Shown here piece after piece: positions 52,201-54,400 of a DNA stretch of 64,000 nt (its first letter is position 1; every line of letters starts with the position of its first letter). Source of the stretch: Podarcis gaigeae. Its lineage: Eukaryota. The notes below the pieces were generated by a model. It saw only the letters and a program-made list of their open reading frames with translations. It had not been told where the DNA came from and searched no databases. The position numbers were made by a program, and so were the translations under genes. The stretch lies in NCBI GenBank assembly GCA_964106915.2, contig OZ066929.1; one strand, 5' to 3'.

Positions 52201-52291
52201 TACATGGAACCATAGGATGTTGGGCCACACAAGGTTCTCTCCCAGCTCTACCTGGAGATGCCAAGATTGAACTTGGGGTGTTGTGCATGCA
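52201..52291 (-). mobile_element. Squam2-like SINE that hosts the retrocopy insertion (continues at 53748-53769 and ~54401-54412)
   Basis: CTCTCCCAGCTCTACCTGGAGATGCCAAGATTGAACTTGGG…TGCATGCA, resuming as GCATGCAAAGTAGATAG at 53751; compare the intact in-window copy at 18886-18955. Confidence 0.75.
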
Positions 52292-52394
52292 TTTTTTTTC
52301 CATCTCGGACCTCAGTGGAAGTTTGTTTGTGGTGTCAGTGGTAAAGAGTGCATGGCGGCAGTGCTGGTCTGAGAAGGAGCCGGGGGTGAAGGCA

Positions 52395-53398
52395 ATGGGG
52401 GCATACAGCATGGAGAAGGCTTCTCCCGTGCTCTGCTGCTATCCTGCCCATCGAAGTTGGCAAACGTTTTGAGTTCCACACACTGCCCTTCTGCTAATGT
52501 CTCAGTACCAGAAGGTTCATCTGGGATGATCATTGCTGATGCTTCCAGAAATCCCGACCTTCTTTTATTTCATAAGAGCAGTTCCTCTGCTCCTGATGAT
52601 TCCATATTAGCCATAACGAATAGAGAAAAACTGAGAGTCTATGAAAATGCATATGAGGAACACTTCTCTATACTGGAAAATGACCTCTTTATCAAGAGTA
52701 CAGTGGACGCTCGAGTTGCAAATGTGATCCATGCAGGAGGCATGTTCGCAACCCACAGAGTTCGTGACCCGCAGCCCCACGTCTGTGCACATGAGGGTTC
52801 CGATTCGACCCTTCTGCTCGTGCGCAAAGCGTGATTTAGTGTTTCTGTGCATGTGCAAGTGCCGAAACCCGAAGCATCTGTAACCCAATGTATGACTGTA
52901 CTAGCAAATGGTTTGCTGGAGAATACCAGCTTGTTCCGTTTATGAGTAAAATGTGTGTGCATCAAGTCTTCCTTAGCATAGCACTGCCCTTCAGCTAATC
53001 TCTCCATACTAGAAAGTTCCTCTGGGATGATCATTCCTAATATATTGAACCATTCCAATATTATTACTTTATACAAAAAGAACTATTCCTCCTCTTTTTG
53101 GCAATACATCTTGAGCATAGCCAAGGGACACCTGAATCACAGTGCTGGCATGTATGAAGAGCAGTTCTATATATCTGACAGTGGCCTTGCTATCAAGAAT
53201 GCTTATGAAAGACTTGCTGGAGAGTACCAGCCTGTTTATCAGCAAAATGAATCCTGTGTGCTTCAATTTTTCATTAATATGCCTGTTTCAGGTTCAGGAT
53301 GCATACATATCTGGATCTACATCACACCAGGAATTGCCATCATTTTGCTGCTGTGTTACATAATCTGTCAAAAACTAAAGAGAACAAAAACCCATTAA
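52395..53398 (+). pseudogene. Intronless (processed) pseudogene of a type I membrane glycoprotein with two tandem atypical Ig V-like domains
   Basis: Decayed signal-like segment (FSRALLLSCPSKLANVLS). Domain 1 after MITE removal: HCPSANVSVPEGSSGMII…NDLFIKSTSKWFAGEYQLVPFMSKMCVHQVFLSI. Domain 2: HCPSANLSILESSSGMII…SGLAIKNAYERLAGEYQPVYQQNESCVLQFFINM. TM IWIYITPGIAIILLLCYIIC followed by basic QKLKRTK. Six N-glycosylation sequons. Disabled by the MITE and frameshifts near 52396 and 52981. Confidence 0.8.
52701..52898. mobile_element. Tigger/pogo-like MITE inserted into Ig domain 1
   Basis: TA|CAGTGGACGCTCGAGTTGC … GTAACCCAATGTATGACTG|TA. Excision restores the reading frame and the alignment to domain 2. 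Confidence 0.9.
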
Positions 53399-53540
53399 AC
53401 TTGCTGCTTAGCAAACATAAAAGAAAAGTGGAAGAGGCTCATCCAGCAGAAAATATGGAGACTCTCTCATCCCTGGGAATAAAAACTTCACAGTGACTGA
53501 AGAGCAGAAGCTGCAGGATCTTGACCTCTCTGCCTTAGAG

Positions 53541-53747
53541 GTATTTATTGTTGCTGTATTTGTATCTTTATTATAAATCTCATTGTGGTCTATGTGGAAA
53601 TTGTTCAGCATGGTTGAGTATTTGTTTAATACTTTTATGTATTGTTTATGAATACTTTTGTTACTTCCATATTGTAAATTGCCTTGAGCATGGTTTGAAC
53701 TGTGGAAAGGCAGCATACAAATAAAATTATGTATGTATGTATGTATA
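53541..53747 (+). mobile_element. L2-type LINE 3' tail with (TATG)n
   Basis: 53682-53722 matches the reverse complement of 60669-60709 at 39/41 nt; TGTAAATTGCCTTGAG…GAAAGGCAGCATACAAAT motif. Confidence 0.8.
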
Positions 53748-53769: not shown

Positions 53770-54400
53770 GGGATGCGAGTGGCGCTGTGGTCTAAACAAC
53801 TGAGCCTAGGGCTTGCTGATCAGAAGGTTGGAGGTTCGAATCCCCATGACGGGGTGAGCTCCCACTGTTCGGTCCCAGCTCCTGCCAACCTAGCAGTTTG
53901 AAAGCACGTCAAAGTGCAAGTAGATAAATACCGTATTTTTTGCTCTATAAGACTCACTTTTTCCTTCCTAAAAAGTAATGGGAAATGTGTGTGCGTCTTA
54001 TGGAGCGAATGCAGGCTGCGCAGCTATCCCAGAAGCCAGAACAGCAACAGAGATCGCTGCTTTCGCTGTGCAGAGATCCCTCTTGCTGTTCTGGCTTCTG
54101 GGATTCAGAATATTTTTCTTCTTGTTTTCCTCCTCCAAAAATTAGGTGTGTCTTATGGTCTGGTGCGTCTTATAGAGCGAAAAATACGGTAGGTACTGCT
54201 CCGGCAGGAAGGTGAATGGTGTTTCTGTGCACTGCTCTGGTTTTGCCAGTAGCGGCTTAGTCATGCTGGCCACATGACCTGGAAAAACTGTCTGTGGACA
54301 AACGCCAGCTCCCTCAGCCTATAGAGCGAGATGAGCGTGCAACCCCAGAGTCATCCATGACTGGACTTAACTGTCTGGGGTCTTTTACCTTTACCCTTTT
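53770..54400 (+). mobile_element. Full-length Sauria SINE (Squam1) with nested MITE
   Basis: GGGATGCGAGTGGCGCTGTGGTCTAAAC… head with GGTTCGAATCCC B box, and an (ACCTTT)n-like tail. Confidence 0.92.
53931..54189. mobile_element. Mariner/Tc1-type MITE nested in the Sauria SINE
   Basis: TA|CCGTATTTTTTGCTCTATAAGAC … GTCTTATAGAGCGAAAAATACGG|TA. The SINE sequence is continuous across it (GATAAATA|GGTAC). Confidence 0.92.

What the first reader, a model, noticed from the sequence alone, without database searches (positions are those of the whole stretch)
52395..53496. Reconstructed cargo protein: two tandem atypical Ig domains with conserved frame and divergent middle
Seen in sequence: deleting the MITE plus one TA joins …DLFIKS to TSKWFAGEYQLV…MCV, which aligns with domain 2 GLAIKNAYERLAGEYQPV…SCV. 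The ORF track hides this. The domain starts (52481 and 52982) match at 47/54 nt, while the central third is barely alignable. Sequons: NVS; NLS, NHS, NYS, NHS, NES. Established: V.V.EG.S (A'/B), L.I.N (E) and xGxY (F) are Ig V-set hallmarks, and CD2/CD58/CEACAM N-domains lack the B-F disulfide. Inference: these domains lack the canonical Cys/Trp but keep an N-terminal Cys (HCP) and a G-strand Cys that could pair. The divergent middle would be the ligand-binding face, as in fast-evolving immune or decoy receptors. A viral origin (Ig-like glycoproteins of large DNA viruses are also intronless) cannot be excluded. A plausible cytoplasmic tail (…KHKRKVEEAHPAENMETLSS…) lies in another frame to 53496.
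Basis: partly seen in the sequence, partly recalled or inferred. Interest (0 to 1): 0.7.

Follow-up and report, generated by a model that had tools for sequence, protein, structure and literature searches.

The report
Dead retrocopy of lizard 2B4-like gene
This is a broken, intron-less copy of an unnamed lizard cell-surface gene whose domains are predicted to fold like the outer domain of the killer-cell receptor 2B4; it is one of seven copies that all end in the same jumping-gene tail, which likely let that element's enzyme paste the messenger RNA back into the genome.

Summary
The locus is neither a live gene nor viral. It is a processed pseudogene (52292-53747, 10-bp target duplication). 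An intron-containing relative with an open frame lies on contig C2, and all three introns are missing at the exact junctions. The copy has a stop at codon 7, the MITE, an 11-nt deletion that puts domain 2 out of frame, and a stop after the membrane segment.

Two by-products matter more than the copy.
(1) The parent family is unnamed and occurs in lizards and turtles. AlphaFold (pLDDT 85) plus Foldseek ranks CD244/2B4 domain 1 first, and the A-strand/G-strand cysteine pair is conserved. It has no C2 domain or ITSM, so it is 2B4-like, not a SLAM member.
(2) Seven copies with nested 5' truncations share one junction into an L2-type LINE tail (stem-loop plus short tandem repeat, no poly(A)). A stringent LINE likely copied one fused, spliced mRNA repeatedly, from a source version no longer found in this assembly.

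The parts
52282..52291 (+). 5' copy of the 10-bp target-site duplication
   Evidence: The 10-mer occurs twice in the 64-kb window, at 52282 and 53748, which are the two ends of the insert
52292..52472 (+). Exon-1-derived 5' UTR and signal-peptide region; ATG 52352, premature TGA 52370-52372
   Evidence: 74-80% identical to exon 1 at G000:C2:111,224,435-111,224,641; the parent has CGA at this codon
52473..52698 (+). Exon-2-derived IgV domain 1, N-terminal part; the 7.1-kb intron is absent at 52472/52473
   Evidence: 81% identical to parent exon 2
52699..52900 (.). 200-bp MITE with TA duplication (Tc1/mariner-like, by recalled features)
   Evidence: Absent from the parent; 68-78% identical to three other copies in held loci; also present in runs X10 and X12
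52901..52981 (+). Domain 1 F-G strands, ending at an 11-nt deletion across the exon 2/3 junction (frameshift; stop 52996-52998)
   Evidence: the 11 letters are present in run X12 and absent in X10
52982..53285 (+). Exon-3-derived IgV domain 2; intron absent at 53285/53286
   Evidence: 86-87% identical to parent exons 3 and 3'; parent domain modelled at pLDDT 85.3, best Foldseek match 2B4
53286..53538 (+). Last-exon-derived membrane segment (53309-53365) and cytoplasmic tail; 1-nt deletion giving TAA 53396-53398, 27-nt deletion at 53416/53417, 4-nt deletion near 53492; source stop TAG 53536-53538
   Evidence: about 30% diverged from the extant parent's last exon
53541..53747 (+). L2-type LINE 3' tail: T-rich stretch, two-part stem-loop (53680-53712), AATAAA (53720-53725), (TATG)n; no poly(A)
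   Evidence: High-copy repeat begins at 53541-53561; fold z -2.9, same architecture as the tail of an RT-bearing LINE in L009
53748..53757 (+). 3' copy of the target-site duplication

Best explanation
The locus is a dead processed copy of a spliced lizard mRNA for an unnamed single-pass glycoprotein with two tandem domains predicted to be 2B4-like IgV folds, and it was likely pasted in by an L2-type LINE enzyme that recognised an L2 tail fused to the mRNA just after its stop codon.

Shown: exact intron loss, the target duplication, the lesions, and six further 5'-truncated copies with the same cargo-tail junction and 3' end.

Inferred: one source transcript (a now-lost paralogue or older version of the C2 gene, or an intronless master copy) carried the tail and was reverse-transcribed repeatedly from it. 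The MITE came before the 11-nt deletion.

Inferred for the living parent: a heavily glycosylated adhesion or ligand/decoy molecule of the CD2 type. It would bind a partner through its GFCC'C'' face, be stabilised by an A-G disulfide, and lack tyrosine signalling motifs, so it would work like CD58 or CD48 rather than like signalling 2B4.
For: Parent: open frame over GT-AG, phase-1 exons on C2; three junctions reproduced exactly.
Copies: seven loci in two DNA searches, starting at window-equivalent 52296, 53146, 53154, 53168, 53279, 53424 and 53512. All pass into the repeat tail at the same point and end at the same stem-loop; none has poly(A).
Tail: free members of this repeat family (597 first-look candidates) align at their 5' part with the end of an RT-bearing LINE ORF (0-1 of 200 shuffles as good, for 5 of 5 copies tested). 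L2 proteins bind a cognate 3' stem-loop (PMC4176376, abstract); cellular RNAs must acquire it to be mobilised (PMC4476161, passage).
Neutrality: 4 synonymous of 22 listed differences from run X12, against 27% expected.
Fold: pLDDT 85.3, pTM 0.79; 5 of the top 6 Foldseek rows are 2B4 (TM 0.74, 21% identity); Pfam Receptor_2B4 weakly in 5 of 35 members.
Against: The autonomous LINE with this exact loop was not found: no RT frame was seen joined to the family in 18 + 25 loci. The L2 label rests on recalled ORF2 motifs and tail shape, not on a tree.
A clear target duplication was seen only for the window copy (possible 5-6 bp ones in two others).
The genome also holds other LINE types, and a relaxed LINE priming inside the tail is not formally excluded.
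The source is not in the assembly: the extant parent lacks the tail, and its last exon is 30.6% from the copies' majority against 10.7% for domain 2.
VIA-align ties 2B4 with pIgR, an scFv, CD58 and FcmR at Z 11.5-11.6, so 2B4 kinship is a lead.
The disulfide geometry was not measured.
The parent's exons were almost uncovered in three RNA runs, so its expression is not shown.
One search hid 36 difference rows.
Confidence: 0.8

Rival explanations
1. An ordinary L1-made processed pseudogene: the mRNA happened to have an old L2 fragment as its polyadenylation signal, L1 copied it by its poly(A), and the tails decayed.
For: AATAAA lies at the 3' end (53720). The 10-bp duplication is within the L1 range. 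Retrocopy numbers track L1 across chordates (PMC3136929, passage; lizard not in that correlation).
Against: 0 of 7 copies show a poly(A) tract. All end like free family members, in short repeats (clear (TATG)n in 4, degenerate in 3). The stem-loop folds in 6 of 7 and partly in the seventh. The copies are only 5-8% from their majority (one 15%), young enough for some A-tracts to survive.
Confidence: 0.1
2. The window copy (or another full-length intronless copy) was itself the transcribed master, formed once by template switching onto an L2 tail and then re-copied.
For: It is the only full-length copy found. No intron-bearing source with this last exon was found. L2 template-switch chimeras are known for U6 (PMC4476161, passage).
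Against: The window's 27-, 4- and 1-nt deletions are absent from the other copies, and the copies form a star at 9-15%. The uneven divergence (domain 2 10.7%, last exon 30.6%) fits a separate gene better than a neutral master. No CpG island lies upstream.
Confidence: 0.15
3. A functional or once-functional retrogene encoding a decoy receptor.
For: Each domain's frame is open apart from single lesions; the cysteines and sequons are kept; run X12 lacks the 11-nt deletion.
Against: The MITE, the post-membrane stop and the 27-nt deletion are shared with both related DNA runs, and substitutions look neutral. The stop at codon 7 precedes everything.
Confidence: 0.03
4. An endogenised viral Ig-like glycoprotein gene.
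For: Viral IgV proteins share the fold (8-20% identity).
Against: There is a spliced host parent, and homologues occur across lizards and turtles. No relative was found in viral contigs or phages. There was no credible Pfam hit among 120 selected window ORFs.
Confidence: 0.01

Closest known systems
Processed pseudogenes (retrocopies)
   Same: Exact intron loss, 5' truncation series, target duplication, disabling mutations.
   Different: Ends in an L2-type stem-loop and short repeat instead of poly(A); seven copies share one mRNA-LINE junction.
U6-L2, U6-Mon-1 and U6-AnolisSINE2 chimeras (PMC4476161, passages); SINEs with borrowed LINE tails (PMC3747384, passages)
   Same: A cellular RNA gains mobility through the 3' tail of a stringent LINE.
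   Different: The head is a spliced protein-coding mRNA of about 1 kb, and the shared junction means one fused source copied repeatedly rather than separate switches.
SVA_F1/MAST2 and STK40-SVA subfamilies (PMC6139936, abstract)
   Same: Host exons fused upstream of a retroelement and amplified as a small family.
   Different: Those are L1-mobilised and joined by splicing into SVA. Here the whole coding sequence precedes an unspliced L2 3' fragment.
CD244/2B4 domain 1 (PDB 2PTU, 2PTT)
   Same: IgV fold, best Foldseek match, no B-F Cys pair, Cys near both ends as in the reported Cys2-Cys99 A-G bond (PMC12506779, passage).
   Different: About 21% identity; V, V-V or V-V-V layout with no C2 domain; no cytoplasmic ITSM.
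JAML, CD226 (tandem V-V receptors) and chicken chB6
   Same: Two extracellular Ig domains on a type I protein (JAML and CD226 top the low-confidence full-length search); chB6 is a fast-evolving CD2-like sauropsid protein (PMC11882424, parts 1-2 of 4).
   Different: No sequence-level match to JAML or CD226; lacertid tails lack chB6's CCC motif; no direct comparison with chB6 was possible.

Membership tests
Processed pseudogene | Introns of a parent gene absent at exact junctions | tested here: met
   3 of 3 junctions
Processed pseudogene | Target-site duplication | tested here: met
   10 bp, only two occurrences in the window; not clear in the other six copies
Processed pseudogene | Disabling lesions and neutral change | tested here: met
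   Stops, MITE and frameshifts; 4 of 22 listed changes synonymous (list incomplete)
L1-type retrocopy | 3' poly(A) tract | tested here: not met
   0 of 7 copies
Stringent-LINE (L2-type) passenger | 3' stem-loop plus short tandem repeat shared with a LINE | tested here: met
   family 5' part aligns with a LINE ORF end
Stringent-LINE (L2-type) passenger | Autonomous partner with the same loop | tested here: inconclusive
   None seen in 43 loci with 1.5-kb flanks
Stringent-LINE (L2-type) passenger | RT belongs to the L2 clade | not tested
   RVT_1 hit only; clade label recalled from ORF2 motifs
CD2/SLAM family (CD244) | N-terminal IgV domain | tested here: met
CD2/SLAM family (CD244) | 2B4-type A-G cysteine pair | tested here: inconclusive
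   Both Cys conserved (30 of 30, 33 of 34); bond distance not measurable with these tools
CD2/SLAM family (CD244) | Membrane-proximal IgC2 domain with conserved cysteines | tested here: not met
   All ectodomain units of the lizard proteins match the same V profile
CD2/SLAM family (CD244) | Cytoplasmic ITSM (TxYxxV/I) | tested here: not met
   1 pattern match in 21 proteins, and it lies outside the membrane
CD2/SLAM family (CD244) | Position in the SLAM gene cluster | tested here: inconclusive
   In 240 kb only an ATP1B-type exon and one unrelated V-set gene were found among 128 selected ORFs; the lizard SLAM cluster was not located (one search gave only I-set exons)
CD2/SLAM family (CD244) | Binding to a CD48/CD2-type partner | not testable with these tools
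   No candidate partner identified
Viral Ig-like glycoprotein | Intronless origin, viral neighbours or viral homologues | tested here: not met

The most novel reading that the evidence does not exclude
A protein-coding mRNA became a short-lived, SINE-like retroposon by capturing an L2 tail right after its stop codon. This would be a direct route by which stringent LINEs make gene retrocopies. The seven copies also preserve a lost paralogue, with a frameshift-derived new cytoplasmic tail, of an undescribed reptile family of V-only 2B4-like ligands or decoys.
Probability: 0.45. Interest if true: 0.62.

Novelty: new variant of a known kind. Interest (0 to 1): 0.42.

Why it matters
The locus itself does nothing.

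Reviews hold that stringent LINEs (L2, CR1) rarely make gene retrocopies because an RNA must first gain their tail (PMC4476161 and PMC5470649, passages). This family appears to be a worked example with a spliced mRNA, and it suggests a simple genome-wide screen in reptiles.

It also exposes an unnamed, fast-changing family of cell-surface IgV proteins in lizards and turtles that shares 2B4's unusual cysteine pair. That bears on how reptile NK/T-cell adhesion receptors relate to the mammalian CD2/SLAM set.

Tried and rejected
Sequence searches:
- Pfam and PDB searches with window pieces gave nothing useful. The 35-row profile reached CD48 only at E 0.048.
- The four-sequence full-length model was poor (pLDDT 50) and was used only as a hint.
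- A genome search with Receptor_2B4 returned titin-like I-set exons, rejected.
- Six long repetitive hits of the profile search (P0016, P0018, P0023, P0025-P0027) were dropped; P0016 is bacterial. P0021 was left out as a near-duplicate of P0020.

Neighbourhood:
- MHC linkage is weak: the class I cluster is 10 Mb away.
- No C-type lectin match lies beside the parent; the nearest is 2.2 Mb away.

Selection and age:
- Positive selection was not shown.
- The tree puts window domain 1 outside Zootoca plus Podarcis (85/94 to 96/96 support), but the AU test does not reject grouping it with Podarcis (p 0.12). It rejects pairing with this genome's parent domain 1 (p 0.015).

Expression:
- No RNA holder listed.
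- Two RNA runs gave no reads on the unique cargo, but three runs barely covered the parent's exons either, so expression is undecided.

Literature:
- Six family LOC ids appear in 0 papers.
- Searches for reptile CD244-like families and for L2/CR1-made mRNA retrocopies listed no description of this family or case. Subscription journals are not covered and no supplements were read.

No complex prediction was run, because no partner is known.

Full report
What was checked. A 200-bp TA-flanked insertion lies at 52699-52898, the domain starts match at 47 of 54 nt, and the sequons are as listed. The frame claim does not hold in this genome. The true start is 52352, a TGA follows at codon 7, and an 11-nt deletion near 52980 throws domain 2 out of frame.

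The parent. A protein search of the genome gave 8 matches, three of them in tandem on contig C2. Those are phase-1 exons of an intron-containing gene: signal-peptide exon, 7.1-kb intron, domain A exon, domain B exon, a recent duplicate of B, and a last exon with membrane segment and tail. The frame is open and the borders are GT-AG. The window copy reproduces all three junctions with the introns gone and is flanked by a 10-bp duplication. It is a processed copy of a host mRNA, which removes the viral reading. Searches of viral contigs and phages found no relative, and viral structures match only at fold level.

Is the copy alive? No. Besides the lesions above there is a stop after the membrane segment and a 27-nt deletion. 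In two DNA runs of related organisms the MITE, that stop and the 27-nt deletion are present; the 11-nt deletion is in X10 but not in X12. Of the 22 single-contig differences listed for X12 in coding parts, 4 are synonymous, against 27% expected under neutrality (36 rows were not shown). RNA runs were uninformative, since the parent's exons were barely covered either.

A family of copies. Two DNA searches found the same seven loci on five contigs. They share the 3' end and differ in 5' extent, the usual signature of LINE reverse transcription (established knowledge). All pass, a few bases after the source stop codon, into the same repeat tail of about 200 bp. They end in a two-part stem-loop, AATAAA and short repeats; none has poly(A). 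The tail belongs to a high-copy family whose 5' part aligns with the end of an RT-encoding LINE ORF held in L009. That LINE's own tail folds the same way with different stem letters. I call it L2-type from recalled ORF2 motifs; no tree was built, and the autonomous partner with this exact loop was not found. L2 proteins recognise a cognate 3' stem-loop (PMC4176376, abstract), and cellular RNAs must acquire that segment to be mobilised (PMC4476161, passage). One shared junction in seven copies means one fused source transcript, not seven template switches (inference).

The source is not the extant gene as it now stands. The copies are 5-8% from their majority (L022 15%). That majority differs from the extant parent by 10.7% in domain B but 30.6% in the last exon, and the parent has no such tail nearby. 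That frame is shifted relative to the extant gene, whose frame is shared with gecko and iguanian homologues. In trees, window domain 1 falls outside the Zootoca and Podarcis A domains, though the AU test does not exclude a Podarcis grouping (p 0.12). A lost paralogue with a shifted tail is the simplest reading; an intronless master is the rival.

The protein family. Close homologues are 'uncharacterized' proteins of Podarcis, Zootoca, Lacerta and Rhineura, with domain orders A-B, B-A, B and B-B-B. A profile search gave 35 hits at E up to 0.001, 30 of them new. Of 20 looked up, 17 are lizard or turtle proteins, 2 are unnamed and 1 is a bacterial false hit. One of the 17 carries a KLRB1 name, from a fused lectin part; the rest are uncharacterized or hypothetical. 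Ten were not looked up. The N-terminal and G-strand cysteines are nearly invariant.

The fold. A single-domain model on 35 rows has pLDDT 85.3. Foldseek puts 2B4 in 5 of the top 6 rows (TM 0.74, 21% identity). VIA-align ties it at Z 11.6 (rmsd 3.1, 101 aligned) with other V domains, and the ESM Atlas gives V-set throughout. The family has no C2 domain and no cytoplasmic ITSM, so it works like a CD2-type surface molecule but fails SLAM membership. My inference is an adhesion ligand or decoy that binds through the GFCC'C'' face.

The divergent middle. Between the window's two domains, codons 1-20 differ at pN 0.13 and pS 0.20, codons 21-62 at 0.47 and 0.49, and the rest at 0.36 and 0.41. Because synonymous sites follow the same pattern, homogenisation of the exon starts explains the 47/54 match at least as well as selection; the counts are small. 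The A/B duplication is old, as Rhineura has both. dN/dS against the parent is 0.93 and 0.65 with intervals spanning 1, so fast evolution is plausible but positive selection is not shown.

Papers seen. Passages: PMC12506779, PMC3747384, PMC5470649, PMC3136929, PMC4476161. Abstract and outline: PMC4176376, PMC6139936. Parts 1-2 of 4: PMC11882424. No supplements were read. Searches listed no description of this family or of this kind of copy series; coverage is open-access only.

Verdict. The feature is real but is a pseudogene. Its value lies in the apparent L2-tail route to repeated mRNA retrocopying and in the unnamed 2B4-like reptile family it points to. Interest 0.42; new variant of a known kind.

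Noticed in passing
G000:C2:111,232,500-111,234,900 (L010:6500-8900): The parent has a recent 1.74-kb tandem duplication of the domain-B exon with its flanking intron pieces (dS 0.08); domain number and order vary among lacertid homologues.
   Followed up: partly
L035:3428-3814 (C2:111,259,400): A neighbouring gene with a single V-set domain, matching uncharacterized Lacerta LOC117042379; no profile match to this family.
   Followed up: partly
L030:4295-4993, minus strand (C2:111,170,400): An ATP1B3-like first exon (name recalled; Pfam Na/K-ATPase beta) with no in-frame Met, preceded by a CT microsatellite; possibly broken.
   Followed up: no
L038:1850-7470, minus strand: A Ty3/Gypsy-type LTR retrotransposon with open gag and 1566-codon pol frames, 50 kb downstream of the parent.
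   Followed up: no
L009:6155-7630: A LINE with a 417-codon open RT frame and an intact 3' stem-loop, ending about 0.8 kb upstream of the parent's first exon.
   Followed up: partly
L074-L098: The free repeat family is about 360-400 bp with a fairly fixed 5' start, and some copies have a repeated unit of about 120 bp; it may be a non-autonomous L2 derivative in its own right.
   Followed up: partly
L020:1718-1956: The same MITE family inserted independently into the tail of another copy.
   Followed up: no
L023:1550-2300: The shortest copy lies directly beside a GC-rich, CpG-island-like stretch.
   Followed up: no
window:53768-54401: A SINE next to the 3' duplication is interrupted by an inverted-repeat element at 53929-54191.
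   Followed up: no
P0020, P0024: Gene models (P0020 is from a turtle) fuse this domain to a KLRB1-like lectin, hinting that the gene sits beside NK lectin genes there; not so in this genome.
   Followed up: partly
P0027: A dropped 2264-aa hit is built of tandem V-like repeats that look CD2/SLAM-like (recalled impression; not looked up).
   Followed up: no
G000:C2:121.0-121.8 Mb: MHC class I cluster on the same contig, 10 Mb from the parent.
   Followed up: no
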